Positions 7,769-39,557 of a stretch of 64,000 nt of DNA are shown here, in pieces; the stretch's first letter is position 1, and each line of letters opens with the position of its first letter. The DNA comes from Eledone cirrhosa (taxonomy: Eukaryota). The notes under the pieces are model-generated. The model saw only the letters and a program-made list of their open reading frames with translations. It was not told the origin of the DNA and searched no databases. The DNA lies in the NCBI GenBank assembly GCA_964016885.1, contig OZ024741.1:393018001-393082000 (forward strand), given 5' to 3'. Made by a program: the position numbers and the translations under genes.

Positions 7769-9442
7769 TATAATCTAGATATCATTCTAAGAAGACTCGG
7801 TATACACCATCTGCTTGATTTTCAAAATTAGTAACTTTTACCTAAACATATGTACATAATTACATTAAGACATAATTGACTGACTTCTCAATTTAAAGCC
7901 ATGTACTTTTTGAACATTTGTGTTACACATTTGTGATAACAAGTTTAATTATTGATACGCAGGACCGATCCACATTATTCTTAAACATATCGAATCAATC
8001 TGTCCCTATTTTCATGAACAGAAACATCGAAAACATCCTTTAATGCAATCGTGACAACCTAGTCAACAATACAAAGAATTAACCACTATAAACCCAAAGG
8101 AAAAAGTCATTTACTTCATCCTCTCTAATATGAACAGCAGTCAATTATTACTCTCAATGTCTCTACAGATGTTAAGCCTCACAATCTCGGGTGATCTCTC
8201 ATGAGGACTTCACGAATATAATATTGCATACACTTCATCCAAACACTAGGCTTCTTTTAGATCAGAAAATTCGTTCCAAAGTAGTAGCTCATGTTCAGCA
8301 AAGCCGAGATGCGGCTTGAGTACCACTCAAACATTGAATAGTGACACTAGTGCTATTCATTTAAACGTTCTCAACTTTATCAATGGTCAAGTCAGGCTTT
8401 TGCCTGCTATTGGTACCATGTAACCCAGTATAACCTGCTTCATTGTCGAATAGTCGGTGACCCTGACTCCCCACTAGACCCTGATCTTATAAGAAGGGTA
8501 CGGGGAACCCCAGCAGCGCAAAGACAAGATCTGTTAAAAGAGCGGGTGAACTCCTCACTCAGCGGCTCACAATGCCAACTACAGGTTAAATAGCCTCACC
8601 AACCCGCTATTGGCCAAGTGTGGTGAGTACGGCTACTCACCTGACATAACCAAAGCCAAACAGAAAGTGGTGGAGGTCAACCTGAGAGAGAATTCACCGG
8701 CATGAGTGAGAAGGTCCGGAATTGGATTGGATTGAAAACCTCATCAAAAAAAGGACATTCATTTACCAACATAATTCAACCGTTGTTTCCCAGATGTTCT
8801 GTTTCTTCGATCTTCCTTTTCTATCGGACATCTAGCAAGTTTCATACCACATCTGCATCTTCGTTGCATTTACTGTTTCTTCCCTCACCAAGAGACTGTA
8901 CTAAACACTTTTTCCTAATACTTCTTCCACAAAATGTGTATTTCTAGAATTGTCTTTCCTTCCACAGAAGTCGGTCTACACATGTCATAATTAAACATCA
9001 AACTGAGCCGTTCTCATTAGTCTAGAATGATCTACAAAGGTCTGAAGCACCGCCTCTTCATCTACAGTTGATCGATAGATGTATAACAATTTCAAGTGAT
9101 TCATTATTGTAAAAATACTTGTTTATGATTTTAGGATTAAAATGAAATATTGTTCACAAAACCAGATATAAAGATAAAAGTTTTATAGATCATATTCCAT
9201 ATTCAAACAAGAAGAAAAATAATGATATTCCCCAATTGCGCAAATAAATTGAAATAACAAACAGGGTGAAATAAAGTTAGTACATTAACAAACGGTTGCC
9301 TGTTAGGTATATTAAATGGTATGAAGAATTGTTACCTTTCAAATGAAAATAGCCAATAGCATAAGTACAATAATAACAAATACATATAAACACGTGTACA
9401 TACTTTTAGACAAAACATCTGTACTAAGCTGTAGTCCAGGGT

Positions 9443-9730
9443 TCAGTTTGGGTGAAAAACTGGAGAACTGTGTCCGATATAAACGTGATGTTTACTGTAA
9501 TTTCCTCGCACTGGTTCCCATAAAAACACATAATAAATACCGAGAAAGAATGCTAGGCCAAATTCGAATCCAACATATAAGGAAATAAGAAGAAATTTTA
9601 TGGACATAATCTGGAAAAACGATGGTGGGACATGATCGCTGACACCAACTAATTTAGGTTGTGATGATAACTTCCTTCTGGGTTGATCTGGTGGTGTTGG
9701 AACGTCAAGGGTAACATCAGAAGGTGCCAT
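9443..9730 (-). CDS. Small single-pass membrane protein, InaF-motif-like (paralogue 1), 95 aa
   Basis: ATG-to-TGA ORF in non-repetitive sequence with a hydrophobic stretch KFLLISLYVGFEFGLAFFLGIYYVFLWEP. It is 20/34 identical, ungapped, to the ORF at 39324-39557. The LAxxLxxYYxxxWxP pattern matches my recollection of the InaF motif (human INAFM2 ...SLAAIVLAVYYSLIWQPV). Confidence 0.8.
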   Translation of the reverse strand: MAPSDVTLDVPTPPDQPRRKLSSQPKLVGVSDHVPPSFFQIMSIKFLLISLYVGFEFGLAFFLGIYYVFLWEPVRGNYSKHHVYIGHSSPVFHPN

Positions 9731-10514
9731 TCTCTAGTTGCGGTTTTATGATATAAAAGTTGGCTTCTAATACTGTTGCTGGCGTAGCAGTGTTTTTTTA
9801 ACGTCAGTAGAAACTGAGAAAGAATTGAATCAATGTAATTACGAAATTGAATCAAGATAATACTACCACGGATATTTATCAGAACATTATAATGGAATTT
9901 TCAGAAAAGAAGATTAGGAAACAGCCCAATTAAACACCCTGTGGTTTAAGTATCAAAAGCAAATTACAAGCTAATTAATATGATGGTAATAAATAGTTAA
10001 TAAATAAGTATTATTACTAATATACTCCTCCGTGTGTCGACGACTAATTCCCTGCATCGTAATCTAATAATTTATATTCACACCCTTGTTGTGTCATCCT
10101 TAATTATAAGCTTGTTTTGTCTAATAGATTTCGATTTTAGTTTACTTGTTCATAAACAATACGACAGTTTGAAACAAAGATATATTGTGAATATATATCA
10201 GCAAGTATGTGTACGTACGTACGGGTGCATGTATGTATGTATGTCGACGACTAAACCGTTAACCCACCAAATTTACTTGGTGAGGAGGGTAATTTGGGAC
10301 ACCCTGCAGTACAAAAAACAAAACCTGACAAAGGGCGGAAGAACTCATAAGAGTCAACGGCCATCCAAAAGTGTGTAAATATGTATATACACATGTACAT
10401 ATGTATGTATATGTATATGTGTATATACATGGATACATGTGTATGTATATGTGCGGGGCTATAGAAATAGTCGGGCTGGACACCCGATCGCGCGGTTAAA
10501 CCACTGGGAGTGAA

Positions 10515-10730
10515 GGACCCCTAGCCTTTGTCAGGGCATTCTTCTAGGAGAATGCAACTCAGGAAACTGGGATAATTCCGACATAAAACCTGCGGCTCAG
10601 TAGTTACCGATGATGTTGATCTTTTCTTCTTTTGGGGTTATAGCTACTGTCGCTCAGAGAGTGGGATTGGCTCAGTACACAGTCTTTCCTCACTTTAAAA
10701 AATATCTTCACACACAGGCATTGCACGATA
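10515..10730 (+). repeat. Dispersed repeat of unknown class (also at about 25695-25885 and 36230-36400)
   Basis: Shared core cccctagcctttgtcag...ctaggaga...aaacctgc...gatgttga...agagtggga...cactttaaaa in three diverged copies. Confidence 0.6.
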
Positions 10731-10929
10731 GAATTAATTAATAATTATTAATAATGGTATATCGTGCAATGGCCATACTTGATAACGAAGGGGCAGCCAT
10801 CATCATCATGTATGTATGTATGTATTTTCTATGTATGTATGTAATTATGTATTTATGTATATGCTTGTGCGTGTTACTTATTTGTAGAACAAAAACATTA
10901 CTTTCCTCCTGACCATTCCTAACCTAAAG

Positions 10930-13043
10930 AGTAAAGTGGGAAGCGTTTGTGGATAAGGAACTCGGGACTAGGTATGGAGATACTATTGCATCCAATTCAG
11001 AGAACTCCCTGAGAAAACTGAAGACGTTGAGACGGAGTGGAGACTGTTCAGTGAGGCAGTTTCTGTTTCAGCTGTTGAATGCTGCAGACGAAAGAGGCTT
11101 GGTGTGGCGCCGGACGGCAGGAAGACTCCTTGGTTCAATCAAGAGGTCAAAGATACCATCTGAGCAAAGAAGGAAGCTTACAAATCTTGGCTTGGAAATA
11201 AGTCCTCCTTCTTGCACTTGCACTACAAGCAGGCAAGAAGAATCGCTGCAGAGACAGTAAAAGCGTCCAAAGTTAAAATATGGGAGGAATTTGGAGTTAA
11301 ATTGGAATCCGCCTTCAGATCAGCAAATAAAGTGTTCTGGTAGACTATCCGCCGACTTCGTAATAAGAAGTCCTCCTCCACACCTGCTATCAGGAACGCG
11401 TCTGGGGTTCTCCTCTCTTCAGAGAGGTGCATCCTTGCGAGGTGGAAAGAATACTTTGCTGATCTCCTAAACCCGATTACAACAATATTTTCTGATGTAC
11501 ACGAGGTGCATCTGGGAGCAATGACTAATCTCTCAGAAGTTGAGGTCACAAGAGTAGTTAAAGAGCTCAAATATGGCATGGCCGCTGGGGAAGATGAAAT
11601 CCGGCCCGAGCTGTTAAAAGCCTTAAATGGAGAAGGTATTCTCTGGCTGACTCGTGTGTGCCAGGTGGCCTGGATCCCTGGGAAGGCACCTATGCAATGG
11701 CAATCAAGAGTGATAATCCCAATTTTCAAAAAGGGAGTCAAGAGAGATTGCTCCAATTACTCCCCTTTTTAAGCTTCCCTGGTAAAGTCTATGCTAAGTG
11801 CCTGGCAAAGAGATGCAGGGAGATTGTCGAGTCCAAGCTAGCTGTGTCGTTTTCGCCTCAGACGTAGCACAGCTGACCAAATGTTCACATTGTGGCAGGT
11901 ATTCAAGAAATAGTGGGAGTATTGCCAAGAAGTATATTCTTGTTTTGTCGACCTTGAGAAGACATATGAGTGCGTCCCTCATGAATTACTGTGGAAGGTT
12001 CTAAAGGAGTATGGGATCAATGTTCAGCTTCTTGTTGCCCCGATGTCTCTATTTGAATGCCTGAATAATTTTTTTTCGGATAAATGGTGCTAAATCGGAA
12101 CCATTCAAAAATATTTTTCTTGTCTATAATGTATTTCAATTGGTCTATTATGTTATATGCTGCTTAATCGAATTCATTCAATGTGGGAGTCTGTCTCCTC
12201 TCCTGTTCATTATGTTCATGAACAGGATTTACATGAGGAGCCAGGCTGGAAGTGGTATTACGAGTGACAGGTGTAAAATCAGTCGACTGGAATTCGCAAA
12301 TTACATGGTGTTACTTAACTCGACAGAAGGTGATCTCCACTCGCACTTGATAGGTTTGATGCCGAGTGCTACATGCCTGGAATGAAAATAAGTACTGCAA
12401 AAATTGATACACTCGTCCTCTCATGGAAGCCTACGTAGTGCACTCTTTTTGTGAATGGAGTTCCATTGAAGCAGGTAGAGAAGTTCAAGTATCTCGGGAC
12501 CGTGTTCTCGAGTGATGGAAAGCAGGAGGCTGAATTATGTGCAAGAATTGCAGGAGCTGGTGCAGTAATGTGCCAGTATTCATGCCAACCCTTACCTATG
12601 GTCATGAATCTTGGGTAATGACCAAAGGAATACAATCGAAATACAAGCGACCGAAATGAGGTTCCTTGGAGTAACGTTACTCGGAGTTCAGAGAGTCACT
12701 CCAAGTAGAGTCGCTCTTTCTTCTAATTGAGAGATCACAGCTCTGATACTATGGGCATGTGGTTAGAAGGCCTCAGGAAGAATCCCCGGAGAGATTTTAC
12801 GGGAAAAACAAACCGGCAGGAGACCCAGAGGTAGACTCTGAGCATGATGGTTGGATAACATCCATGAGCTTGGCTGGTCTCGCTTGGAGCTCCAGCCATT
12901 TCAGATGGAGACGATTGTTGCCGACAGAACCCGCTGGAAGGAGTGTTTGAGGACTCTGCCCTCTCAAAGAAGAAGAAGAAGAAGAAGAAGAAGAAGAAGA
13001 AGAAGAAGAAGAAGAAGAAGAAGAAGAAGAAGAAGAAGAAGAA
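10930..13043 (+). mobile_element. Degenerate RTE-clade LINE (RT) ending in a (GAA)n tail
   Basis: AAGEDEIRPELLKAL, IIPIFKKG..RDCSNY, VDLEKTYE, LSPLLFIMFM, FKYLG; tail at 12967-13043. Confidence 0.85.
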
Positions 13044-13482
13044 GGGCAGGAGAGCACTTTCACAAGCCCTTTCTAAAACACTCCTTAAACACCCCCAACA
13101 CCTCCCAACACCACTCTCAATCAATTAGCTCTCTTTTACCATTCACTATTTTCTTTCACCTCTTGTGTATATATATGCTTTAATTCCTTTAAATCTTCAT
13201 CAACACTCCTTCACTCCCACCCTCATTAACCCCCCCCCCCCCCCCCGATCAGGTTGACAATCGCCACCGACGAATGCGAGAAAGTTCTCCAGGAAATTTA
13301 ACCAGGAATCTTTAAAAAAATCTCCCCACCAAAGTTAACAAAGAACTTACTAGATCTACAAAACCAAATTGTAAAATTATAATATAAAATTAAATTGTTT
13401 AGAACTACAAGTGAAGTTATTCTTTTGCTTTTTTCAAATAACTGTACCAAGGATTTCACACATAAACCTAACTGTACCAAGG

Positions 13483-13605
<123 letters not shown>

Positions 13606-14859
13606 ATATTAAATAAATGGAAACTATATTTATAAAACCATATTTATTCTATTATATATATTTAAAGGGTACCAAAACTTTGTTACGCTTTCATCAGATA
13701 AAATACAAAGTTTGTTTTATAAATTTTGACATAACCAAGAAAAGATACCTTAAGGGTTCAAGTTTTTCTTGGATAGTGAAGGAAAAGAGAAGAAAAGTCA
13801 GATATTTCAAATTATTTAGATGTGTATGCAAATGCGGTTGAGGTAAAGGGCTGAAAAAACGTTATTTTAGACGCTCTGCAGAATTTAAATAATTAGGATA
13901 TATGTAGGAATTAACAATTTGCGGGAATGGTGGAATATGATTCCAGAATTTAAATTTATTTAGCTATATTATGAGTTATAATATTGTATATATAATCAAT
14001 TAGGTTATATGAAGAATTATGGTTGTAAGTAGATTTTATCTTATAGGTTGTAAGTATATAAATATCTATATAAATTAATAATTGTGCATGTTTAAGTATT
14101 ATAGAAATAGAAATAATTTACAATTATTAGTTGTTTACATTTCTAATATGAGTTACGGAGGATGTTGATTTTGCATTTTACATTAAAAAAAACACGTAGT
14201 TCAAGTTGTAAGAGAACAATTTGTAGATTCAAATATTTTGTTCCAGCATTGAAAATGTTTTCAGAATATTGTTAATTTAGCGAAGTTATATAGTTTATCA
14301 TACATATTATATTATAATATAATGTTTATGTTTGCACGATTGAAAAGGGAAAGATAACTCCAATCTTGTTTGTTAAGCGTTAAATTTGATGAATGATTTA
14401 CTCAGAAAATATATAGAGAAAATTATATATTATTTTGTGTGAGATTAATTTCAATTATATATTATTTTAGTCGAAAGATGTGTGAAAGTTTGAAAATCAA
14501 AAGAAGAGGGAAAAAGTAATGTGCATTTCGAAGAACTATCGTAAAGAGGATAAACTTTCAGAATGTCAATTAAAGATTATCAATCTACATCTAAAAAAAT
14601 ATATTTAGAAGGGTATCATTAAGAAAATAATGTCAAAAGCTAAAAATAGTAAAAAAATATATTAAAAAATTAAAAAATTAAAAAATTAATGTCAACTAGT
14701 AAAAATAGTAGAAATATAAAAAAAATTAAGAAGGAAGATCATTTAAAATAATTTAAATTTAAATTTAAATTTTTAAAGAAAATAGGATCATTTTGAAGGT
14801 GTATAAGATATAGTCAAGTGTAATGAATATCATAAATTAAAAATACTTCTGAAAGTGGA

Positions 14860-15500
14860 ATTTTGGCGATGTCTCCAACTAGAAAATAATTCTGTTTTAA
14901 GATTAATAGAGTTTTGACAGTTAATTATATAAAACATTTCCTCCATACACAAGTTACAGAATCTTGAGAAAGCCATATTTCGGTATGCAGGTGCTTTCGA
15001 AATCGTTCCCCAAGATATTGAATAGTCTATATTGTTGTCTTTTAAGTTCCAAATTAAATGTGAAAGTAAACTGGAAGATTTTTTATCGGATCTATTAAAT
15101 GTGTGTTTATGGTTATACCAGCGTTCTTTGAATTTTGTAGAAGTGGCACCAATATAGTTAAATACTTTGTCTCTAGTTTAAACTGTGCATTTATAAATTA
15201 TGTTTTTGTCTAAGCAATTATTTTGTAAAGGACAGTTGGATTTAATTCTACAGTTACAATTTCTGGAGTTGTTGTTCGGAACGGTACTATTATTCTGAAT
15301 ATTGTTGTTAGAAATATTATTATTGATATCTTGGTTAGTTTGGTTAGGGTTTAAATTTAAGTTGCTATTATTAATTCTATTTATATTTTGAGCTATGTTC
15401 ATAGTAGTAGAGTAGGATAGTTTTATAGTGTGTCTGTTAAAAATAGAGTGGTATCTGAAGTAATCTCTATTATACAAAACATTAAATTCAAAAGAAACCA
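14860..15500 (-). mobile_element. Penelope GIY-YIG endonuclease half
   Basis: IFNRHTIKLSYS...CNCRIKSNCPLQNNCL...YIGATSTKFKERWYNH...CNLCMEE. Confidence 0.85.
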
Positions 15501-15559
15501 ATTTATCGGCCAGGAGTACCTTAAAGGCCTCAAGAATAAAATCTAGAAAAAAACAAAGC

Positions 15560-16400
15560 GGATCCTGGTAAAATCTGACAAAACTTATATGGTATGGAAA
15601 AGGACGAATATAATAACCTTATATTGAAAGAACTCAGGAAAAACTACAAAATAACATCAAATGAAGATCTTTCAACGTTAAATAGGGAAGGTTCGGAAAT
15701 TATTTATAAATTAGGCATTCAAAATAGGACCGAACCCTTTATACCTAGAAAACCGGAGATTAACCTGAAGGACCACAAAAGAAATTTTGAAATTGAACTA
15801 CCAGTCAGACTCATAGTACCATCTAAATCGGACTTAGGCATAATTAGCAAGCATATATTAGATAGAATTATACCTCTACTTAAAGAAAAATCACACCTTA
15901 AACTATGGAACGGTACTAATGAAGTTATAGATTGGTTTAATAACATAAAATTAAAACATAACAAAAAATTCATTCAAATGGATATTGCAAATTACTACTC
16001 CTCTATTACCCCTAGCTTACTTAATAAGGCTCTTATCTACGCTTCTAAACATACAGACTTATCTAGTGAAGAAATGAATATAATTCTAACAGCACGTAAA
16101 ACCCTAATAGAATTTAATAAGCATCTCTGGACAAGAGCCGATAGAAAAACAATTTTGATATGACTATGGGATCATCTGACTCGGTGCAAGTAACGGACCT
16201 TGTTGGATTATTTATTAATAATGTACTGCATAGGAAAATGCCAGAGATGACCGGAGGTTTATATCGCGACGATATGTTACTTTTAATTGAAAACCATAGC
16301 AATAGTGAAATTAGTAGGAAAAGGAAATCCATAATACAATTTTTCAACAATTACAAACTTAATTTAGAAATCGAGAATAATTACAAAATCGTTATATATA
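15560..16400 (+). mobile_element. Penelope reverse transcriptase half
   Basis: LKDHKRNF...PVRLIVPSKSDLG...QMDIANYYSSI...MGSSDS...GLYRDDML. Confidence 0.9.
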
Positions 16401-16789
16401 TAAAATAAACATATGAAAGAATCACAGGGAAAAAAATAATACCAAATGCCGGGAATTTGTGTTAAGTTAGAAATTCAAAGAAATCAAATTCCTTCAAATT
16501 CAAATTAGTTAGTAATCCAAAGAAAATATATTCCTTCAAATTCAAATTAGTTAGTCTGGTCTATACCATTTTATCAGAATGAATATCGCTTCGTGTGGAC
16601 AGCGACTGAAGCAGTCAAGACGTGTGTTTCTTTGAAGCTAGATGTGAGAGTATATTCCACTTTTCTGCGTTACATAATCGGGATAATTTCCCCCATTAAT
16701 ATATGGGGTAGATTTTTCTAATATACTCCATTTAATGGAAAAAGGGTGTGCCTTTATTTTTTAAGGATACATACATGGTTTGCGAGCTG

Positions 16790-17540
16790 TGTGGCATGTT
16801 TTTTGTCATGATGTCTCATGGTTGTTCCATGGTTCAGGTACCGACTTTTGAACCGGATCCGACATGAGTTGAGGCTTCAGTTTGGTGGTCCTGGTTGGTG
16901 GAGGTCACTTCTGCTTGATATATCACCACCGGCGTGTTGCACTGGTGGTCAAATGGACATGTCTCTCGCTTTCTGCATGAGCACCAGTAAGGTGGGGTGA
17001 TTTTGCGTTTGCCGGTGATGTGGGTTTTAACGTTATTGGTACACGAGTAGCTTATTTTCACTGTATGGCGATTGAATAGCTGTCGGTATTTATGACCAAC
17101 ATGGAAATGGAGGACTAGGAGGGCTACGAATGTTCTACCTACATTGGTTTGCACATTAAATGCGAAAGGTAGCGTGAAACATATGACGTCTTTATGTCCA
17201 GGGTTTTTTTTTCTTTCTAGAACGGGGATCTGGAGAGTAAGTGATTTTTTTTCAGAGAAGACGCTGTTGTTTAGTGCTGAATTATAGTAGGGTGCTGCCA
17301 TATCAAAGATAGGGATACCCCCTTACTAATGTTATTGATAAGATTTTAAAAAATTATAGTAGTGTGGCTAGAGTCCTTATGAGTGTACCTAAGTGTCTCA
17401 GTGGGTTTGTGAAATGGTCTGTATGTGCATGTATGTAGGTCTAAATTAACGTCTAGGAAGTTAACATTGGTGAGGTTGGTGGATATAGTAATTATTAAGC
17501 CTAGGCTGTTGAAGGAAGTGATCAGGTTTTCTCGGAGTCA
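16790..17540 (-). mobile_element. Penelope RT/EN junction fragment
   Basis: AAPYYNSAL...LFNRHTVKISYSC...CSCRKRETCPF. Confidence 0.8.
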
Positions 17541-17667
17541 TATGGTTCGCACCACCTTTTGCACTTAATATGAAAAGCAATGTAGGTTAAAAAGATTCCA
17601 AGCTCTCCTATATATATATAAATATATAAGTATATATATATATATATATATAGTTTTAATATAGATG

Positions 17668-17718
17668 AGATTCTACAGGACTAGAACTGTTTCATTCTTT
17701 AGAAATCATCAGGAATCT
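17668..17718 (-). ncRNA. Type I hammerhead ribozyme (family C)
   Basis: Exact reverse complement of the motif at 27099-27149. Confidence 0.75.
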
Positions 17719-17974
17719 GGCTTTCCAAAATAAATAATCGTCTCTTTCTCCCTGTTTTCATATATATATATATATATTGAAGAGTTAAACAAAATTCAAT
17801 GAGAATATCAAAGAATGAGTTTTGCAGTAGATTGGAAGCACTCTACGAAAAATAATTTTCCAGAGTTATTAATATTAGAATATAAATATTAATAAAATAG
17901 ATGTTCTTTTGATTAAATCTTAACCATTTAACATCTCAGGGTATGTCATGTATCATTATATTTTGTCTGATGAG

Positions 17975-18164
17975 GGCGGTGAATTGGCAGTATCGGTAGA
18001 GGGTTGGACGCCATGCTTTGATGCATAGAGTTACGGCCCTAGCCATTCTGAGTTCAAATCCCGCCTAGGTTAACTTTGCCTTTCATCCTTACGGGGTCGA
18101 TAAAATAAAGTACCAGTAATGCACTGGGAAAATTGCCGGCCTTGTGCCAAAAGTAGAAACAATT
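17975..18164 (+). mobile_element. SINE family 1 inserted into a hammerhead-bearing pseudo-LTR
   Basis: Target-site duplication attatattttgtctgatgagggcg at 17955 and 18162. Confidence 0.9.
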
Positions 18165-18224
18165 ATATTTTGTCTGATGAGGGCGTACTGTTGTACATCC
18201 GAAATATGTATAATAAAATGTAAT
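18162..18224 (+). ncRNA. Hammerhead ribozyme (family A)
   Basis: attatattttgt-CTGATGA-GGGCGTAC TGTT GTACATCC-GAAA-TATGTATA-ataaaatgtaat. Confidence 0.75.
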
Positions 18225-18264
18225 TGATCAAAAGAACATCTATTTTATTAATATTTATATTCTA

Positions 18265-18527
18265 AAACTTGTTCATATGTAACCCATTTGCAACGCCGCA
18301 GCTCCCTTATTATCATATTTACACATATATTTTTTCCTCTGCTGCTACCTGTCTGTTTCGTTCTTTGTATCTTTACCCTTTCTAGCAGTCTCTCTCTCTC
18401 TCTCTGTTAGCCTCTTCCTCACCTTTCACTCACTCATTCTCTGTCACTACCTCTCCTCCTCCCCTTTCTTCCCGTTTGACCTGTCCGTAATCCTTTTCTC
18501 GCGCGCTCTTGGCCAAGCCGGTATGAA

Positions 18528-18618
<91 letters not shown>

Positions 18619-22545: not shown

Positions 22546-24283
22546 TAAATATATAAAAATAAAAAAATTGGGTATGTGAAGGGTAAGGCAGAAAGTAGGG
22601 GGGAAAAAGGGAAATAAATGACATAGGAAAAGGTTTAAATATAAGGGGAGATAAGGGAGAAAGTTAATACGAGAGTACAGAACGTGGATTCAGCAGGTAA
22701 AAAAAAACTAAAAAAAAACTGTAGTGGAAGTAAAGAGCAGGAAAGGAGTTCAAGGTGATTCAGTTATCGTAGGAATGTCAATCCAGTTACAGATCAGATG
22801 TGATTTCAAGTGAGGACAACATCTGAAGATCTCGGTCTTTGAGTTCAGGCAAGCAGAAGTGGCTTTCAAGTTTTGTAAAATCCTATATTTTTCCGTGGTA
22901 CACAAAGAACAATTCTTTGTGCCCCTTTAGTACTCCCTCAAATGGTCTAAAATAGACCAATCGATAGAGTACGGGATGTTTTTATCCTTGAATTTCCACA
23001 CCTTACTTGCGAGGGCCGTTGCTGTTCTTTTATCGGAGTGCTTAAAAGAAGCGACATGTACATAAAACCTGGTTTTAAACCTGTCCTGGGTCATGCCAAC
23101 ATATCGCTCACTTTGGCTGGCTGGTTGTTGATTAAAGGTGTTACTTTGGCCTCATAAACAACGGATTTGGTGTTACATTTGCCCTGTAATGGGCATTCAT
23201 CCGGCTTCCTGCAACTGCATCCTGGATTTGTTCTCGTACGATTTTAATTAGTGATCTTAGACTTCATTGATGGGCAACAAGAGTAACTGATCTTAACTAC
23301 ATCTTATAATATCTATGATTAGGAGGAAAATGTTTATCTAAGAGGTCAAGGAATTTCCTTCCTACATTAGTTTTGACAGTTAGAGAGAAGGGGGGTGTAA
23401 ACCAAATAATTTTCCTTTTCCTATTATTGTGGTTAGTTTTAGGGGGGGGGGGGTAGGTAAATAATTAATTTGTTCTGTAAATCCGCTGTTATTAAGGGCT
23501 TTATTATAATAAGGGACGGCTTTATTAAAAATGTCTAGAGACGAAGATAAGGTAGAAATCCTACGGCTAATGTTGGGAATAAGATTTTTTAAAACTATAG
23601 GGGGATGGCAAGACTCTTTGTGTATATATCTAAGATTTTCATTAGGTTTATGATAAGGTTTAAAAGAGGCGGTAAGTAGATCAAGATTAATGTCAAGAAA
23701 GTTAGCATTGGTAAGGTTCATATCTATAGTAATTTTAAGGTTAAGATTAGCAAAAGTATTGATTAAATCTTTACGGAATTTATCAAGGTTATGGCCGTTG
23801 GTGGTATGAGAAACTGCCAATCCGTCATCACGGTAGAAACCGATATTATGGGAAGGAAATTTCTCTTTGAGGCTGTGGAGAAGGAATAATCCTACTAAGT
23901 CACACACATCCGCACTGTCATATGAACCCATTGCAACATCAACAGAGTTTTCAGGGTTTGACTTTTTAACCCAAATACTTTCATTAGTAAAGAGTAAAGT
24001 TTTTCTAGCATGAAAGATAATGTCTTCTTCTAATTTAGAAATATTAATGAAAGGTCTTGCAAACTCTAAGGCATTAGTTAATAATGAAACAGTAATAGAG
24101 GGGTAAAAAACAACAATATCAAATTGGGTAAATCTACACTTATTTTTACCTTGTATATAATTGTGTGTGTGTGTGTTTTCATGTGTGTTTATTTTTCCTT
24201 TCCTTCTTCCTTTTCCAGCCTCACTTTCATATAGATTATATTTTTGTTTTTAAAATCCAATGCCAATAAATACACCGGGATTT

Positions 24284-28363: not shown

Positions 28364-28660
28364 TTATAAAGAACGAGGATTCAGTGCTGCATCATATCAT
28401 ATTTATTAACAATGTTTCTCTATCGATCAGCTCGAGGCAAGATCTATAACAGATCGAACCTGATTCTGTAATCAAAAGTTCTTCAGATATATTTGGCATA
28501 TGAGATCGTCTCCGATTTTGTTTGTTCAAACACGTCAGCTGTTATTTATCTACAGCACATATTAGCATCCTGTTACTTCGAGCTGATCGCCAGAGAAACA
28601 TATGTAACATGTTAATAAATATGATATGATACAACACTGAATCCTCGTTCTTTATAATAT
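28364..28660. repeat. Inverted repeat with arms of about 75 bp
   Basis: tattataaagaacgaggattcagtg... / ...cactgaatcctcgttctttataata. Confidence 0.8.
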
Positions 28661-28729
28661 TATACTCTGCTCTGCACGAGCATCGAGTGCATACCGCCTA
28701 CGGACGCATTTATCTTGCAACCTTACAAC

Positions 28730-28803
<74 letters not shown>

Positions 28804-28810
28804 TGTGTGT

Positions 28811-28867
<57 letters not shown>

Positions 28868-29124
28868 AACATCTCTGTCTGATGACCGACCCAGACGTAT
28901 AATATTTTTGTCTGGCCTTTCACTCCCAGGTTTTTAAAAATATTGAAAAAATATCGTTAACTCTGCTGAGTCCCTCCGCCCTTTGCCGGGTCCTGTATTT
29001 CATCCAGCAGGGTGTCCAAATATCACCCACCTCACCAAGCTAGGTTTGTGGGGTTGCCGGTTTAGTCACCGACGATCCGACCATGAGAGGGGTTGTACTG
29101 GGTTACATGTTACCAGTAAAATTT

Positions 29125-29625
29125 AAAAAAACAGTAGAAAATGCTAGAGGGATTTTCTCTCAGAATAACATCAAAACATTTATTTACAAAATAGAAATTT
29201 CCGCATTTAATTGTACCGGTTTCAGCTTATACGTTTTTTCAACGACGGAAGTGTATAATGCAATTAAATTGCATATTAATAAGAATAATAAGAATGTGGG
29301 GGAAAAAAGTTCATTTAAAGCTGTTGGCCAACAGATTAGACTGCTGCCACCACTGTTGGTAAGGCTAAGGTCAACACTAAGAGAAAAAGAAAGAAAAATG
29401 TGGACTCTTCTCCCTAAATATGTATGTAAAAACAAACATTTTTTCCCTTATATTCTTATTATTCTTATTAATATGCAATTTAATTGCATTATACACTTCC
29501 GCCGTTGAAAAAGCATATAAAGCTGAAACCGGTACAATTAAATGCGGAAATTCCTATTTTGTAAATAAATGTTTTGATGTTATTCTGACAGAAAGTCCCT
29601 CTAGCATTTTCTACTGTTTTTTTTC
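29125..29625. repeat. Inverted repeat with arms of about 170 bp and a degenerate hammerhead-like core
   Basis: 29125-29295 versus 29452-29622; gTTGAAAA-AGC..GCT-GAAACCGGTA. Confidence 0.8.
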
Positions 29626-30738
29626 TTTTTTACTATTTTATGTATATATATCAACTGGCGTGTCACTTCTCTACATTCCATATATACAGAGAGAGAGAGA
29701 ATATATATAGAGAGCGAATATATATATAGAGAGAGAATATATAGAGAGAGAGAGAATGTTTAAACAGGTAATTAAAATCCTAGTCTTCAGAACATAGATA
29801 CACAACTATTGCCAGTGTCAGTGACATCATATAGAAAATCAGGAGTTACAAAAGGATGTTATACTACAGAAAACGCAGTATAAGGAGCAATAGTGAAAAG
29901 TGAAAAATTGAGCATATTATGTATAAAAAGATATTGTTTAAGGTACATGTGCAAAAGATACAATAAAAAAAGATGTAAGATAAGATAGATAAAAGATATC
30001 ATAGCATTGGAAATCAGGTAATGTTAAGGGTAGATAATGCAAAAGTTAATAAAATTAATAAAAGCATGCATGAGGTAAGAGTTGTATAATAAATAAAACA
30101 AACATATTTCATATAGAATGTAAAAGCATGTTAAAAGTGTTAGAAATGTTTAAAAAAATGTTTAATGGCATGCAATATGGTAGAGAGATATATGGGGATA
30201 AAATGGATAGATGTTATGTGAAATATAATGCAAAAAAACGTGATTAAATTAGATATGTTATTGTCATTCAAGAATTTTTATATTGGAGTTCGTATATAGA
30301 TGTATATATTGGGTGTAACACACATGTATTATCCATGGAAATCTCTTAATTTTAGATGTAATATTTTTGAGATGTTTATAGTTTTAAAATATGTGTTTGG
30401 TAAAGATAAATTCCACTGTATTACTGGTCATGTTATTATAGGAAATATATTATACAATGCATTCCTATCTTTAAATTTTCTATTAAGAAATACTAGAGTT
30501 TGTTTTATGTGCGAGTTCTATTAATAGTTATTAGGCAGAGTCGGAAGGTTGAGAAGTCGTTAAATTGTTTTAACGTTATGAATTAAAAAAATAAAGGAAA
30601 CGATATTCTCAAGAGGAGTTAATAACAAGGGGGGGGGGGGTTAATTAAGGAAGTAATTACAGTTGATAATAAAATAAGGGTTGTTTTATTATTGTAAATA
30701 AATTTTATTATCTATTGAAAGTTATCTTTCATTAAATA

Positions 30739-31100
30739 GTGATATATCTTGACTTTGCGAAGGCCTTTGACAAGGTCGACCACGGAATGATATGTCACAA
30801 ACTACACAAACTCAGCATAACTGGAAAAGTAGGTGAGTGGCTGCATGATTTCTTAAAAGACAGAAACAAGACAGTTGCAGCCAATGGGGGCCTCTCAAAG
30901 GAAACTTCAATAACAAGTGGGGTGCCCCAGGGCACAGTCTAGTGATTACTACTGTTTTTGGTGGATCTCTCAGACATGCCATCTGTAGTACTTACAACAT
31001 CCCTCACTAGCTATGCTGATGACACTAAGATAGCACAGGCAATCAAAAACCTAGCTGATGCTGCTCTTTTACAACAAGATCTGGATGCCATATACAAATG
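30739..31100 (+). mobile_element. CR1-clade RT fragment
   Basis: IYLDFAKAFDKVDH, SGVPQG, YADDTK, LQQDLDAIYKW. Confidence 0.88.
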
Positions 31101-31104
31101 GGAT

Positions 31105-31291
31105 AGGTTATTGGCAGTATTGGTAGAGGGTCGGACGCCATGCTTTGATGCATAGAGTTACGGCCCTTGCCATTCTGAGTTCAAATCCCGCCGAGGTTAA
31201 CTTTGCCTTTCATCCTTACGAGGTCGATAAAATAAAGTACCAGTAATACACTGAGTAATTTCTGGCCTTGTGCCTAACGTAGAAACAATTA
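31105..31291 (+). mobile_element. SINE family 1
   Basis: Same sequence as 6297-6484. Confidence 0.85.
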
Positions 31292-32221
31292 TATGGGATT
31301 AATAAATCTGTGCTACTCGATTGAACCGTTGAAAATATATAGTATTTTCTGCAGAAAACATCGGCTGATTAAGCTCATTTGCATACCGAGCGATTTTATG
31401 GCTGGCCTTGCCGAAAATTAGAATTTCATTTCTCGCTCTAACATAGCAGACTACATAAATGTAAGTAGAAAAACTATATCAGAATCTCAAAGGGGAGTAG
31501 AGACAGATTTATAAGATTAAATGCCAGGCGTGAAAGCAAAGTGTAGCTCAATGCTTATTCATGCGATTTTAATAAGCTTAGCGAAAGGCAGAGTTAGTGC
31601 TTAAGAAGAGTTAGAGTTCAATTAGGATATAAGCAAAGCATTTATAATCATACTTTCAAATAGGAGAATCAAGTTACACATATAAAATATGCTTATTTAT
31701 TTACAATTGTTTCATATGCCAAATATTTTAATGGTGCAATTTGAAAATGGAGGGATCACTCTAAACATTTAACATGAAATCACCGATATATTTATATTTG
31801 TACATACTCGTCAGAAGTAAACAAATATTAACAAGAATATCAGTTTAGAAATAACCATTACTTCAAGAATGAGGAAGAACAAAATGCATATATAAAACAC
31901 ATTCTAATATTGAAACTAAAGATATTATAATTCGAAATAAAAGATAGTACACACAGCTAATTATAACATTTAAAATATTATATATTTATTTTACTGCAAA
32001 GTCTAATACCATTAGGTGAGACTATTGCAATAACTGAAATTATAATCAAATATCTGCATAATAATATATTACTTTTAATTTTAAGCTAACAAAAAGAAAA
32101 ACACAGATCTATATAAATAGTACAAGAGAATTATGTTCAATTTAAATCGAATAATAATACACAACCATTAAATACATCTAACCAAAACAACCAAAATAAC
32201 ATTTCAAATAATAATATCAAT

Positions 32222-32590
32222 ATTTCAGCGCATCAGCCTCGCCATCACCCGAGGCAACGCTGCGAGTGTGCTGGCTTGCCTCAAAAATCATTATAGAGGT
32301 TGCCCAGTACTCCTCGCGACGTTGCTGTCTTTTGCTCTGGTGTTGACTCCGTTATTCATCCCTTCCTTTACATTTTCTTTAATATTGTAACATTAAAAGA
32401 ATATATCTTTCTGAAAGAATCGCGAGCTATTTATAATGTTGTCTAAGCATTTGTAATGTTATTTATGTATATATTTAAAACATATTTGTTATGTTATTCT
32501 ACTGTAATTTTATTTATATGCTCTCTTTATATTTTCATTCTGAAAGAATTGCAAACGATTTGTAATGTATTTATGAAATAAATAACTTTA
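32222..32590 (+). mobile_element. CRE-clade non-LTR element 3' end
   Basis: FQRISLAITRGNAASVLACL (end of the restriction-like endonuclease) followed by an AT-rich UTR. Confidence 0.7.
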
Positions 32591-32676
32591 TATATCAATA
32601 AGCCGCTACTTGTCACTATTAATAACCAAAACATTACTTTATATTAACACACACAATATTATGATATTGCATTTTA

Positions 32677-32815
32677 TAATTGTTTCTACTTTTGGCACAA
32701 GGCCAGCAATTATCCCAGCGTATTACTGGTACTTTATTTTATCGACCCCGTAAGGATGAAAGGCAAAGTTAACCTCGGCGGGATTTAAACTCAGACCATG
32801 AAAGGCCGTAACTTG
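32677..32815 (-). mobile_element. SINE family 1, 5'-truncated
   Basis: Reverse complement of the SINE body. Confidence 0.8.
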
Positions 32816-32879
32816 CTGCAATATTATTTAATATTATTAAATATTGCATTTAATAATATTAATCCTTCATATTAACTCT

Positions 32880-33280
32880 ATAATTAATCCAAATTGTAAC
32901 TGTAGAAATAAAACATTATGCCCACTTGACTGTAATTGTTTAACTGATAATATAGTATATGGTTGCACAGTTAATACATCTCGATGTTCTAAACTATACA
33001 TAGTTTCAAAAGAAAATTTAATTCTCATCATTCTTTTAGAAAACCCAAAACATTAGCTAGCGCTATCTGGGAATGGAAAAACTAAGAATTTACCCTACAC
33101 ATTGAATTAGAATATATTAGGTAGATCCTCAGCCTATAAACCAAGTAATAGAATTTGTCGATTATGTCTCCTTGAATCTCAGCTCATCATTAAATCCAAA
33201 TCTAACCTCTTAAATAGGAAATCTGAAATCTCCACTTGCCTACATAAAGACCTACAACCGTTCATTATCATAAACTCAAT
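32880..33280 (+). mobile_element. Penelope GIY-YIG fragment
   Basis: CNCRNKTLCPLDCNCLTDNIVY...ICRLCLLES...LLNRKSEI. Confidence 0.8.
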
Positions 33281-33366
33281 ACTGGATAATTAACAACAAT
33301 ATGCTTCAACTATTGCTTAATTCTATATTGAATTCATAATAATGTAATAATCGATCAATATTTTTT

Positions 33367-33723
33367 CGCGGTGGATTAGGAGTATCGGTAGAGAGTCGGA
33401 CGCCATGCTTTGACGCATAGAGTTACGGCCCTTGCCATTCTGAGTTCAAATCCCGCCGAGGTTAACTTTGCCTTTCATCCTTACGGGGTCGATAAAATAA
33501 AGTACCAGTAATGCGCTGGGATAATTGCTGGCTTTGTGCCAAACAGTAGAAACAATTATTTTTTCGAGCGTCGGACGCCATGCTTTGCAGCATAGTTACG
33601 TCCCTTTACGGTCTGAGTTCAAATCCCGTCGAGGTTAACTTTGCCTTTCATCCTTACGGAGTCGATAAAATAAATTACCAGTAATGCACTGGAATAATTG
33701 CTGGCCTCGTGTAGAAACAATTA
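33367..33723 (+). mobile_element. Two tandem SINE family 1 copies (second is 5'-truncated)
   Basis: 33367-33556 and 33566-33723. Confidence 0.85.
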
Positions 33724-33830
33724 TTTTTTCTGATTTAAATAGGATATCTGATACATATATATACTTAACAGAATATATTTATTTATTTAATACAGTATAT
33801 TATCGTATCTGAAAATCTGGTCGGGGGTGA

Positions 33831-34133
33831 TGTAGTGACCTACATTCCGCAGGCTCACATACATTCTCTGTGCGTGATTTGGCTCAGTTCAGCCAATCAG
33901 CGCCAGTAGAAGAGGATGTATCCCTACGCGCCCTGAGGAAGAAATTCCCCGCGAAGATTTGAAGAATCTCTCTCTTGTACCGGAAGCTTCAAGCCAGCAA
34001 CACGCATAATGTAACGGTGAGATCTTGCACCCTAGCCTCGCCGGCTTAACGGCGCAATGGCACATTCCCTTTTGTAACCTCTTTTTATCCGTAACTTCAA
34101 CCATATAAGTTAACAAACATTGTTTGTACTACA
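33831..34133 (+). mobile_element. LTR of an LTR retrotransposon (probably a 3' LTR)
   Basis: TGTAGT...ACTACA termini (inversion extends to TGATGTAGT/ACTACATCA), preceded by a G-rich PPT-like tract ggtcgggggtga; internal CCAAT box; no target-site duplication seen. Confidence 0.65.
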
Positions 34134-34429
34134 TCAAAAAATAAACATACATTTCATCTCTAATTACTGCTGTTGAAATCATTATTATGTTACTCGTGTC
34201 TCAATAACATCTATAACTAATACTGCTAAATACTCTATAATTTTAACACCGGTATACTCCCGTGGATTCCTTACCCTGAGGTAAATTTGAAAATATATTA
34301 TATTTATATTATTATATTTTCCTTATTCCTTTTTACATCTAATTAAATATTATTGATTATTTAATAATCATTATAGTCTAGATATCTCTTTAATAATATA
34401 TACATATTTTCTATGTTAATTCTGCAGTC

Positions 34430-36000
34430 TGCCTCCTGGCAACATATCCATGCATGATTTTTTTTTGCTGAATTCACTGCAGTTTCCCTGTGTGTGAGTT
34501 TTTGATTATCATGCAGGGAGTGTCTTTTAAGGCGTTCCTTGATTAGGTCGGTAGTTTTCTGCCAAGTGTGTATCTTTGTTCTTGGGACCAATATTGATTG
34601 TGCTAGTGTCAACCACCCTGGTATATGTGCATCTACCTTGAAAACTTGTTGGTAGAGGTCGATAAGATACAATATAAGTTTTTTACTAGTAGCCGTCAAT
34701 CAACTCTCTTCCTGGTGTTTTCTTATCTTAGAGTTTTCCTATCACAGTCTCAAGGGTATCATCATTTATTCTATCTTTTTGTTGTAGTGGAGGAGCAATA
34801 GTTCTTTTGGATTTCCTTTAGCCATACTGCATCTTCTTTTCACTCCATACTCTTCTTTTCACTCCATAGTTTTCTCCAGAAGGAATCTATGTCTTTCTGG
34901 GATGGGACCTCAGTGACATATATTACTTTGCCCTTCATATCTCTATAGACTGGTATTTGGTTTCGTCTGAATCTTTTATTAAGTACTTTTCTTTAATCTA
35001 CGTTTCTCGCTGACAGCTCTCAATTCTTTGATGAGAATGATCAGCTTATATTGAAGAGTTCTAGTTGTACTGTCACCAAACACGTTTCTATTTTATTTTT
35101 CACTCTTTGTTGGTGAGGAGTGAAGTTTTTTTTTGTTTTTGTTTGCATGTAATGAACATTGTCACATATCCTATAGTTTTTCGTAGGTTAGTAATCTTTT
35201 TTCTACTTTTGTAATATATGGTGGTATTTTTAGTGATGTTTTGTTTTGTTATCACCAAGATAATGCTTCACTGTCGTTGCCAGGCATATAAACAAGCGTT
35301 GATTTGCCAAAATGTAAGGGTTTGAATTTGTTGTAAATATTCACCCGCAATTTCATCAATAGCATGCAGGGTTCCATTATTTGTTTTCATTTTGTTTAGT
35401 ACTGTTGTTATATTACGTTCCACCAGAGAAATGTTTATAGTATAAATTTCTCTCTGGAAAGTTTCGCTGAGAATATATTTCAATTGTTTATACCCTTGAT
35501 TGACCAAGCTAATGGCAGATGTATTATTATTAACAGTGTTTTTCACAACAGTCGAGGTAGAATCAGTTGATACACGTGGTTTCAAATTTCTTACCGGCAT
35601 AGTTATTTCATGGGACTGTTCAAGTATTTCTGTTGTTTGTTGATGTTCTGCCTGGCTGCTAGAAAGTCTAGTAGAGTGGCAGCCTGTAGCACGTGTTGTT
35701 GACTGCATGTTTGTTCTGGGGGACTTACAATTAATAATGTTCATGTTATTTTTATGTTCAACAAATGTCGCTTGTTGGTGTAATTGTTTGGTTGTGAAGT
35801 GGCTGAGCTTTGGGTGTATTTCGTCCCAGTATAGCTTCATTCTGTTCAAATAGCCAACAGAAGGGTCTTTGTTTTGCCATTTTATAACAATAAATCATTA
35901 TTAAGTTCGTAACTCCAAGAAAAATGTGATTTTTCTTGTTGTTGTTTTTTTCCTCGGTTTTTCACTAATGTTGTTTTTATCTTCATCCATGCTGCTTGTA
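34430..36000 (-). mobile_element. Degenerate R4/Dong-like non-LTR retrotransposon 5' part
   Basis: GYLNRMKLYWDEIHPKLSHFTTKQL and IPGWLTLAQSILVP resemble the R4/Dong ORF; many stops and frameshifts. Confidence 0.6.
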
Positions 36001-36562
36001 GCAAATCCTTGTAGTTAGTATTTAGTCAGATATCTCTACAAATTCGAATAAAATGTGCCTTCAGTGGGTATAGTTAGAAGAATACCCAGTGTGGGAGATA
36101 GTATTCATCTCAAATTTAATTAATAGTCTCCCACACCAAAATGTACGACTGGTCGCGTTGATTGTATGTATGTATGTATGGAAATACTCGGTTTGTTGCC
36201 CGAGCACTCGGTTAGCCCACAGGGCGGGAGAGACCCCTAATTCATCTTAGGAAATCGTTCTAGGAAAAAGAAAACTCTGACGTAAAACCTGCGACTTGAT
36301 CGCAACCAATGATGTTGACCTGTTTGGATACCTGTCACCGTTGTTCAGCGGAGAGTAGGATTAGTCCAGTGCAAGACCTTTCTTCACTTAAAAGAGTTTC
36401 AAGTACAGACACCACTTGATCTAAACAACTTTCACGTGTTGTGTGAACATGGCCTTTTCTTTTTTCTTTCACTGCAGCATATACAACAAGGAATCTAAGT
36501 CCTTGCAAGGGCTAAAAGGTCATGCTCGGGCCACACATCTATAAGAAACCGAGATGCAACCA

Positions 36563-36593
<31 letters not shown>

Positions 36594-37199
36594 TGTATGT
36601 ATGTATGTATGTATGTATGTTATCTCTTTCTCTTAATTTCGAGTATATTTTTTTTGACCGGCCACCTTCCTGGTGGCAAGGTTGTAAAAGAAAAGAAATT
36701 GTCATCCCTTGAATCGCAAGAATGTTTTGCAAATTTTGAAGGTGCCAGCTATCGCAGCCATTTGTAGACTATGAATTAGGGAGCTGCGCTTTTTGTCCGC
36801 AAATCCAAGTTCAGTCATACTTTGGTCCAAGTGGGTTGGTATATAACCCGTAGCTCCAATAATGATGGGTATGAAGCTAAAGTTGTATCTTGGATACTGG
36901 ATTTGTAAACTCCTATGTATGTATGTATGTATGTATGTATGTATGTATGTATGTGTGTGTGTATGTATGTATACATGTAGTGACTAACGGTAACAGCATG
37001 AATCAACTAATGAAAAATTGTCGTACTCTTTCGTTTGATCGTTCTATCTCTCTGAAAAATCTCAGATGGATGTTGCTTCTTGGTCCCAGAATTGCAAAGA
37101 TGTTATTCCGGAAGATAGCAAGGGTGATCGGAAACGTTACAAGTAAAAAACAGTGGAACTGTAGTACGTTAAGTAGTTTAATAGTCTAGAAAACAAATA

Positions 37200-37680
37200 A
37201 TTCTATAGATTCCTCGATTCGATATACTTAACTTCTATCCCTTCCCTGGAATTTCCTAAAACATTCACCAATATTAACGATTTCAAAACCAAGATTATAG
37301 TGAACACCGGGAAAACACCGTTATATAATAGTACTTTCTATTGAGATTAAATAGAGAGCGACTTCTTATTCGGCTTTCTGTGGGAATCTAAGACGCTGTA
37401 GAAATATTTGATCTCGGAGAACTTTTTATTTTAAATATTTTCAACAGACGAAACACTTCCATATCTCCAGAGAGTTTATCAATTTCGTACAACATAAATG
37501 ACCAGATAGATAGACTTAAAAGAGAGCTGATACGAATAGGTAAAGAATTCAATTCTAACATCACTATTATCTTTTCATATATTAGTTTATATCTGAGTAT
37601 TACAGACAAACACGACCCCTATAAAAAGCCACCCTATAACTCCAATCATAATAAAGAACATCACAGAGGGCAAAAGTAAA
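37200..37680 (+). mobile_element. Highly degraded Penelope RT fragment
   Basis: FDILNFYPS...DAVEIFDLGELFILN...IDRLKRELIRIGKEFN.NITI...PYKKP aligns by eye with the 23380-23931 RT. Confidence 0.6.
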
Positions 37681-38059
37681 TCATTTCCTCCCTATTAACA
37701 GTGCAAGATGTTAATGGAATTAATATAGGTGGCGAAATTTTATAAAAGATTTTATTTAAAAAATCATGTCATTCCGAAAGAAGAACACTTTCAACAGTTT
37801 AAGCGTAACATTAATGACATCGGTCTCTCCGATCTCAGAATATTTGTGGAGGCAATGAAAACTGACTCTGTCTTCCTCCTCCAGACATACCAAATAATAT
37901 TTCATTAATTTTTTTGACTGGCTTCAGTCATCAGACTGCGGTTATGCTGGGGCGACACCTCGAGTAAATGGATCAAATCGCCCAAGTACATTTTTTTAAA
38001 GTCAGGTACTAATTTTATCGATAGTTTGCTGACAATTCCTGGTATTTTAGAATTTTATT

Positions 38060-38430
38060 CCGTTCGGCTACGAGTGCAATGACCTTCAACTTCGCCGCAA
38101 CATCTAGAAATGGAAATGAGCAAAAGAGACGCTAACTGTGAGACAAAAAGTTAAACCACCAGTCCTCTTCTCATTAAATTTAGACAATCCGTCTGATTCT
38201 AGAATTGGGAGTATGCTGAATATAGCCAAGGCCCTCATGATTCAACTTGGTATGACGAGCGACGTGACTTGCATTCAGATAGCAAGACAATCCATGAAGA
38301 TTCGTGAAGTCAACGGGCCTGCCATAACATTTATAACCACCATATAGATCGGCTCCGATTCTGGATGCAGTAGCGATGTGGAGCTCATCAAGACTGAGTA
38401 GGTCACCGTGCAAAGTATCGACCCACTCTC
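38060..38430 (-). mobile_element. CRE-clade fragment (zinc knuckle and restriction-like endonuclease region)
   Basis: GDLLSLDELHIATASRIGADL...C...LHGLSC...ARHTKLN. Confidence 0.7.
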
Positions 38431-39323
38431 CGAAAATTTAACACTGGTTTTAAATAAAACACAAATATGCTATGAAGCTGTTTTATGGTGTCATCAACAA
38501 TGTTTACGGTTAACAATTAATATGGAAGAGTGATAGAAAAAACATAGAAACTCTTGCTTATGATATTATCGATATCATCGCACATTGATATATCAACTGG
38601 CTAAGGCCATGGGGATTATTTCTGTAATTATTTATCTTTTTGCTTCAAGCATTTCTCCGTGTTTTGTGTGTGTTTCTAGTGTCTTCTTTTAGTTAAACCC
38701 TTTACCATAAACCTTGCTTCAGGTTTTGTCTTTCTTGTAGTCATTTCGTAACACTGACTTCTTTTGTGGTAATTTTCGTTCCTCTATCACTGAGAACGTT
38801 TATTTTACTTTAAAAAATACATGTATAATCTAAAACACCAAATGACATACTACCATTCTCTCACCTTATCCACTTCTCTCTTCCCTTATTTCTAACTCTT
38901 TCACGTCTTCTCTCTCTTTCATTATTCTTACTCATTCATTCGCATACGTCATTATTCTTCTCTTCCTCTCCTTTTTCTCTCTCTTTCTCACTCTTTATCT
39001 AAATATATACAGTTCCTTTTCTTTTTTTATCCCAATCAAAATCTACCTCCACATTTTCTTTTCTTTTTCCAACGTCTTCCCATCCCCCTTTACCTTTCAA
39101 TATCATATGCGAATCTCTCTCTCTCTCTCTCTCTCTCTCTTTACCTCTCGACCACCCTATATATCTGTTATTTTAATACGTTACTTCTCTGTGGTTTAAA
39201 GAATATTACATTTCATTTCTGACTAATCCACTGACAAAACTTGAACATTAATTAATCTATGAATGTTTGACCTAACGAAGACTATCTAAACTATGTTGAA
39301 AAATGTTAAACATTCATCTTACC

Positions 39324-39557
39324 TTATAAAGGATGTGTCATAGAAGGTAAATTACTTGTGTAGATTCGGTGCTGACTGTAATTACCACGAACTGGTTGCC
39401 AAAAGAAAATATAATAGCCAGTCAAAACAACAGCCAGTGATAGTACAAAACCCATATATAACCCGACCAAAGTTAACTTTTGCATTAAGTTAGAAACATC
39501 TGAAACAGTTTTTCTTTCTTCTGAAATTCCAACACCTATAGCTTTCTTACCCGGCAT
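39324..39557 (-). CDS. Small single-pass membrane protein, InaF-motif-like (paralogue 2), 77 aa
   Basis: ATG in an AAAATATG context, TAA stop. KLTLVGLYMGFVLSLAVVLTGYYIFFWQPV closely resembles the InaF motif. Differences from paralogue 1 in the VRG codons are synonymous (GTG/GTT, CGA/CGT, GGA/GGT). Confidence 0.82.
   Translation of the reverse strand: MPGKKAIGVGISEERKTVSDVSNLMQKLTLVGLYMGFVLSLAVVLTGYYIFFWQPVRGNYSQHRIYTSNLPSMTHPL

What the first reader, a model, noticed from the sequence alone, without database searches (positions are those of the whole stretch)
9329..39326. Splice donors just after both stop codons: possible inaF-style alternative coding first exons with a shared 3' exon
Seen: on the minus strand paralogue 2 ends TAA-G|GTAAGA, a consensus donor one base after the stop (GT at 39322-39321). 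Paralogue 1 has donor-like AAAA|GTATGT about 40 nt and GAAAG|GTAACA about 107 nt after its stop (GT at 9335-9334), and I see no clear AATAAA nearby. Established (as I recall): the Drosophila inaF locus places each small ORF in its own 5' exon spliced to a common 3' exon. Inference: the same architecture may be conserved or convergent here, with either a shared 3' UTR exon further left or paralogue 2 splicing onto paralogue 1 in a bicistronic mRNA.
Basis: partly seen in the sequence, partly recalled or inferred. Interest (0 to 1): 0.7.

Follow-up and report, generated by a model that had tools for sequence, protein, structure and literature searches.

The report
Tandem octopus InaF genes, splicing unproven
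Two neighbouring octopus-type genes encode small membrane proteins of the family that partners the fly's light-sensing TRP channel; one has a strong splice signal right after its stop codon and likely splices on to a non-coding last exon, possibly one shared with the other gene as in flies, but no RNA was available to test this.

Summary
Both ORFs (minus strand, 9730-9443, 95 aa; 39557-39324, 77 aa) are InaF-motif proteins above Pfam's cut-off. The named close homologues are from octopods, and no third copy lies in the window. The three donor-like motifs are at the stated coordinates but are unequal. P2's AAG|GTAAGA, one base after the stop, ranks in the top 35 of 7,336 GT sites; only 8 of 3,232 TAA triplets have such a neighbour. 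P1's two sites are at chance level (P 0.43 and 0.26). The three runs holding P2 behave as genomic DNA and no genome is held, so no junction, shared exon or transcription start was seen. Flies' four inaF genes share a 3' UTR (PMC4528330). In a tree without fly sequences, the cephalopod-type copies group apart from the other InaF rows, so a shared exon here would probably be convergent. Odds: shared 3' exon 0.35; separate genes with P2's own UTR intron 0.30; unspliced 0.25; bicistronic 0.07. The scan's index showed no earlier InaF note.

The parts
9443..9730 (-). P1: intact 95-aa InaF-motif ORF, one hydrophobic segment (aa 47-65), TGA stop
   Evidence: PF15018 25.2 bits, cut-off 21.8; 74-75% identity to three 91-aa homologues, two named as octopod
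39324..39557 (-). P2: intact 77-aa InaF-motif ORF, one hydrophobic segment (aa 28-46), TAA stop
   Evidence: 26.3 bits; 48% over 50 aa to P1; pairs with P0010, support 84/86
39317..39325 (-). Strong 5' splice-site motif AAG|GTAAGA; the exon would end 1 nt after the P2 stop
   Evidence: use in RNA not shown
9398..9406 (-). Weak donor-like AAA|GTATGT, 39 nt after the P1 stop; chance level
9330..9338 (-). Moderate donor-like AAG|GTAACA, 107 nt after the P1 stop; chance level
9812..9817 (-). TCAG|TT about 85 nt before the P1 ATG after a pyrimidine tract: candidate acceptor or initiator-like start; no ATG between it and the ORF
39580..39585 (-). TCAG|TC about 26 nt before the P2 ATG: candidate acceptor or initiator-like start; no ATG between it and the ORF
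39172..39177 (-). ATTAAA 147 nt after the P2 stop (AATAAA follows at 38804-38799): possible own poly(A) signal, or intronic if the donor is used
8039..8044 (-). First ATTAAA after P1, 1,399 nt downstream (first AATAAA at 7713-7708)

Best explanation
The window holds two same-strand InaF-family reading frames 30 kb apart, each uninterrupted, and the upstream one (P2) likely splices from the strong donor one base after its stop to a non-coding last exon that it would share with P1, as the fly inaF genes do. On this reading, old tandem duplication of the coding exon (inferred) gave a menu of single-pass membrane proteins; each is likely chosen by its own start site or acceptor, and each is predicted to act as a TRP-channel auxiliary subunit. 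Shown: the two ORFs, their family, and the strength of the P2 donor. Inferred: use of the donor, any P1 donor, the shared exon (not located, perhaps outside the window), and TRP binding.
For: P2 donor: top 35 of 7,336 GT sites; 8 of 3,232 TAA triplets have such a neighbour. Both ORFs are intact, same strand and PF15018. In the 50-codon core they differ at codon positions 1/2/3 by 23/10/35, the pattern of old constrained coding sequence. None of 11 ORFs scanned between them hit Pfam. P1 has no canonical poly(A) hexamer for 1,398 nt. Both ORFs have TCAG|TY upstream with no intervening ATG (P 0.047 per 100 nt each, post hoc). Fly precedent: shared 3' UTR, ORF in first exon. A junction 1 or 39 nt after a stop fits the 50-55 nt NMD rule (recalled; untested in molluscs).
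Against: No spliced read or junction was seen. P1's donors are at chance level. P2 has ATTAAA at +147 and AATAAA at +520. The 29.5 kb between the genes holds 36 acceptor-like sites as strong as P1's, so P2 could have its own last exon. Human INAFM2 is single-exon, so a spliced 3' UTR is not a family rule. The post-stop-like tails of two homologue groups (P0005/6/16 and P0008/17/18) share no DNA in shifted frames (runs of 3-4 codons against a shuffled maximum of 6) and align poorly in frame; their species and molecule type are unknown. P1 and P2 flanks are not significantly alike (P 0.08-0.8).
Confidence: 0.35

Rival explanations
1. Two independent tandem genes: P2 uses its donor to reach a private non-coding last exon between the genes, and P1 either has its own or is unspliced.
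For: Strong P2 donor but chance-level P1 donors; 36 acceptor-like sites between the genes; old divergence (48% over 50 aa; separate branches); homologue tails share no DNA.
Against: No private exon was identified. The fly genes of this family share their 3' UTR.
Confidence: 0.3
2. Both genes are unspliced after the stop, like single-exon human INAFM2; the donor-like motifs are chance and P2 ends near ATTAAA +147 or AATAAA +520.
For: Poly(A) hexamers near P2; human gene single-exon; P1 motifs at chance; the P2 motif was noticed after the fact and the stop codon supplies two of its bases.
Against: Only 8 of 3,232 TAA triplets have so good a donor within 5 nt, which already allows for the stop's letters.
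Confidence: 0.25
3. P2 splices onto the P1 exon (AG ending at 9814), giving a bicistronic mRNA with 84 nt between the P2 stop and the P1 ATG.
For: P1 has an acceptor-like TCAG after a pyrimidine tract, with no ATG between it and the ORF.
Against: That acceptor is not unusual (180 of 3,249 YAG sites as strong, P 0.13 per 100 nt) and 36 similar sites lie before it. Translation of P1 would need re-initiation (inference).
Confidence: 0.07

Closest known systems
Drosophila melanogaster inaF locus (inaF-A, -B, -C, -D); Cheng and Nash 2007, Chen and Montell 2020 (neither held; known here through passages of PMC4528330, PMC3433705, PMC13012068, PMC4423912)
   Same: Several small single-pass InaF-motif ORFs close together; INAF-B's ORF lies whole in one exon; the four fly genes share a 3' UTR.
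   Different: Two copies in this window, 30 kb apart; cephalopod-type C-terminal WxP[VI][RT]G[NK]YS signature absent from the 4 other InaF rows examined; shared exon, expression and TRP binding not shown.
Octopod InaF proteins: Octopus bimaculoides A0A0L8FRJ6, A0A0L8FQP3, A0A0L8FQV9; Argonauta hians GAB1609648.1
   Same: P1 is 74% identical to A0A0L8FRJ6 and to the Argonauta protein and 63% to A0A0L8FQP3.
   Different: All are named uncharacterised or hypothetical; their gene structures could not be fetched.
Human INAFM2 (ROME) and INAFM1
   Same: InaF-motif single-pass membrane protein with a cytoplasmic N terminus (PMC13012068 passages).
   Different: INAFM2 is a single-exon gene of 153 aa.
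Euprymna berryi EB18067 (PMC12240821, supplementary Table S5)
   Same: Cephalopod PF15018 gene, marker of two adult optic-lobe neuron clusters.
   Different: No sequence seen, so its relation to P1/P2 is unknown.

Membership tests
InaF-motif family (PF15018) | Score above Pfam gathering cut-off | tested here: met
   25.2 and 26.3 bits against 21.8; ESM Atlas nearest clusters InaF, cosine 0.92
InaF-motif family (PF15018) | Small protein with one transmembrane segment | tested here: met
   Best 19-residue hydropathy 2.02 and 2.2; 5 K+R before and 2 after; prediction only
InaF-motif family (PF15018) | Associates with a TRP channel | not tested
Drosophila-type complex inaF locus | Several clustered InaF ORFs | tested here: met
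   Two on one strand; a profile search of 2,601 six-frame segments found no third (next E 0.23)
Drosophila-type complex inaF locus | ORF complete within one exon, followed by a splice donor | tested here: inconclusive
   Both ORFs uninterrupted; donor strong for P2, chance level for P1; use not shown
Drosophila-type complex inaF locus | Common 3' UTR exon | not testable with these tools
   No RNA run; no genome
Drosophila-type complex inaF locus | Coding exon is a first exon with its own promoter | tested here: inconclusive
   TCAG|TY upstream of both fits an acceptor or an arthropod-type initiator (consensus recalled); a paper search for it in molluscs found 0

The most novel reading that the evidence does not exclude
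Octopods independently rebuilt the fly inaF design: a cephalopod-specific family of TRP auxiliary subunits, made by duplicating one small coding exon and splicing each copy onto a shared non-coding last exon.
Probability: 0.3. Interest if true: 0.55.

Novelty: new member of a known kind. Interest (0 to 1): 0.3.

Why it matters
Cephalopod photoreceptors, like the fly's, signal through TRP channels (recalled). The five papers listed for 'inaF' plus 'cephalopod' show no InaF study in their titles or abstract openings. An expanded cephalopod InaF family gives concrete candidates for TRP auxiliary subunits. If the shared-exon layout is confirmed, it would be a case of the same gene architecture arising twice, and it would mean 3'-tag single-cell data merge these genes into one count. 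If not, this is an ordinary tandem pair of unannotated small genes.

Tried and rejected
RNA: no RNA holder listed for the P2 exon. The three runs show single-copy depth of about 5-10 over coding and non-coding DNA alike and one unspliced contig over 39151-40704, so they are DNA and say nothing on splicing. No own genome. The metagenome scan gave 1 locus from 28 pattern matches, L001, a 596-aa frame matching only the short motif; dropped. P0007, P0011 and P0012 (3 of 11 hits) are low-complexity repeats; dropped. A word-index search with P2 alone found no candidate. Homologue tails did not map into the window (best 18.9-24.6 bits against shuffled maxima 23.9-35.0). An apparent alignment of P1's 9335 site with P2's 39209 site was not significant. 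Rfam: 0 matches. Supplements of four cephalopod papers gave no InaF rows (one file unread); those of PMC10700109 were unavailable; file 4 of PMC12240821 was cut when stored, so further rows may exist. The two primary fly papers are not held. No earlier InaF note in the scan index.

Full report
Observation. On the minus strand there are two intact ORFs: P1 at 9730-9443 (95 aa, TGA) and P2 at 39557-39324 (77 aa, TAA). P2's stop is followed by G|GTAAGA. P1's stop is followed after 39 nt by |GTATGT and after 107 nt by |GTAACA.

Chance. I scored all 7,336 GT sites of both strands by pairing to the U1 5' end (motif recalled) and by consensus. The P2 site pairs at -9.5 kcal/mol, and 35 of 7,336 are as strong (P 0.0014 within 5 nt). 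Of 3,232 TAA triplets, 8 have a donor of 8/9 or better within 5 nt. The P1 sites are ordinary: 1,425 and 352 of 7,336 are as strong (P 0.43 in 50 nt; 0.26 in 110 nt), and 73 of 2,124 TGA triplets have two sites of 7/9 or better within 110 nt. P1 has no AATAAA/ATTAAA for 1,398 nt (P 0.039, post hoc, independence assumed). P2 has ATTAAA at +147 and AATAAA at +520.

What the ORFs are. Both pass PF15018 (25.2 and 26.3 bits, cut-off 21.8). They are 48% identical over 50 aa. Each has one hydrophobic segment with more basic residues before it, and an NYS sequon after it. Their 50 aligned codons differ at positions 1/2/3 by 23/10/35. A profile of six sequences over 2,601 six-frame segments found only these two. 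P1's four homologues are two O. bimaculoides proteins, one Argonauta hians protein and one unnamed; a third O. bimaculoides protein came. P0010 (unnamed) pairs with P2 (84/86). Of 12 homologues scanned, 11 hit PF15018 at E up to 0.05, 8 above the cut-off, and P0009 had none. In a 15-row tree of cores, the 11 cephalopod-type rows (7 besides P0001/3/4/9 being window or unnamed rows, grouped by sequence signature) fall on one side of a 98/96 branch against 4 rows from Nilaparvata, Hylaeus (two motifs) and one unnamed protein. Left out of the tree: P0016-18 (near-copies) and P0007/11/12 (repeats). No fly or vertebrate sequence was in it, and the rows were found with a cephalopod profile, so independence from the fly expansion is likely, not shown.

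Surroundings. About a third of the window is repeated within itself. I scanned 20 of the 73 other ORFs of 70 aa or more: 2 hit reverse transcriptase and PHD, 18 hit nothing, including all 11 between P1 and P2. Short exons of another gene would be missed. Upstream of each ATG stands TCAG|TY (9815, 39583) with no ATG between it and the ORF. It fits a splice acceptor or an arthropod-type initiator (recalled), so 'first exon' is open. Left of P1 there are 4 acceptor-like sites in unique sequence and several AATAAA, none singled out; 36 such acceptors lie between the genes.

RNA. The run search listed 3 holders, none on record as RNA, all one sample. Laid on 37000-42700 they gave single-copy depth of about 5-10 over coding and non-coding DNA and one contig over 39151-40704 in 3 of 3 runs, with no difference at the donor. 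They confirm the assembly around P2 and are silent on splicing. Indirectly, six database homologues carry tails beyond the column where the octopod proteins stop, each with a W at or within three residues of it. The tails of P0005/P0016 and P0006 are the same DNA in shifted frames (10 codons against a shuffled maximum of 6), which suggests 3' UTR read through a TGA by the gene caller (inference). The tails of the two homologue groups share nothing (runs of 3-4 codons). That counts mildly against a shared exon near the stop, but species and molecule type are unknown.

Literature. PMC4528330 (passages): inaF-A to -D are an extreme example of genes sharing 3' UTRs. [quoted passage not shown] PMC13012068 (passages): INAF-A to -C associate with TRP; human INAFM2 is single-exon. 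PMC4423912 (passages): the fly genes are co-localised. PMC12240821 (two supplementary rows and main-text passages): one E. berryi InaF gene marks two optic-lobe clusters. Cheng and Nash 2007 and Chen and Montell 2020: citations only. Searches (listings only) showed no paper on cephalopod InaF gene structure; most subscription papers and database annotations are not covered, so RefSeq models may already answer this.

Mechanism. The family and the ORFs are solid. A 3' UTR intron after P2 is likely (about 0.7, my estimate). Where it lands is unknown: a shared exon left of P1 (0.35), a private exon (0.30), or the P1 exon (0.07); no splicing 0.25. The shared reading leads only slightly, and mainly on the fly precedent. 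The proteins work like TRP auxiliary subunits by family inference only. An unchecked scan note reports a TRPC gene with alternative pore exons in the same genome, a lead for the partner.

Verdict. New members of a known family in a tandem pair, with one well-supported post-stop donor and an untested architecture. Interest 0.3; 0.55 if the convergent shared-exon design is confirmed.

Noticed in passing
P0005, P0006, P0016, P0008, P0017, P0018: Database InaF homologues carry 40-60 aa tails with a W at or just after the usual stop column; the tails tolerate frameshifts, so they look like 3' UTR read through TGA by the gene caller.
   Followed up: partly
P0014: A 589-aa Hylaeus anthracinus model holds two InaF motifs; it may fuse two tandem InaF exons, which would hint at clustered InaF ORFs in bees.
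   Followed up: no
P0001, P0004, P0009: O. bimaculoides has at least three InaF-type proteins in UniRef with close accession numbers; more copies may lie outside this window.
   Followed up: no
window 9446-9520 and 39327-39401: All 11 cephalopod-type rows share WxP[VI][RT]G[NK]YS after the membrane segment, mostly with an NYS glycosylation sequon and a terminal HP.
   Followed up: partly
window 57153-57887 (+) and 59069-60403 (-): Two retroelement ORFs with a reverse transcriptase followed by a PHD-like finger.
   Followed up: no
window 48286-48925: Near-perfect 30-nt minisatellite, 21 copies at 99%; a 15/29-nt GC-rich array lies at 43183-43655.
   Followed up: no
window 41900-42350: Very high-copy repeat, summed contig depth up to about 86,000 against 5-10 for unique DNA.
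   Followed up: no
window 4035-4358, 15178-16408, 16834-17301, 23380-23931: Fragments that resemble Penelope-like element proteins (recalled; no Pfam hit).
   Followed up: no
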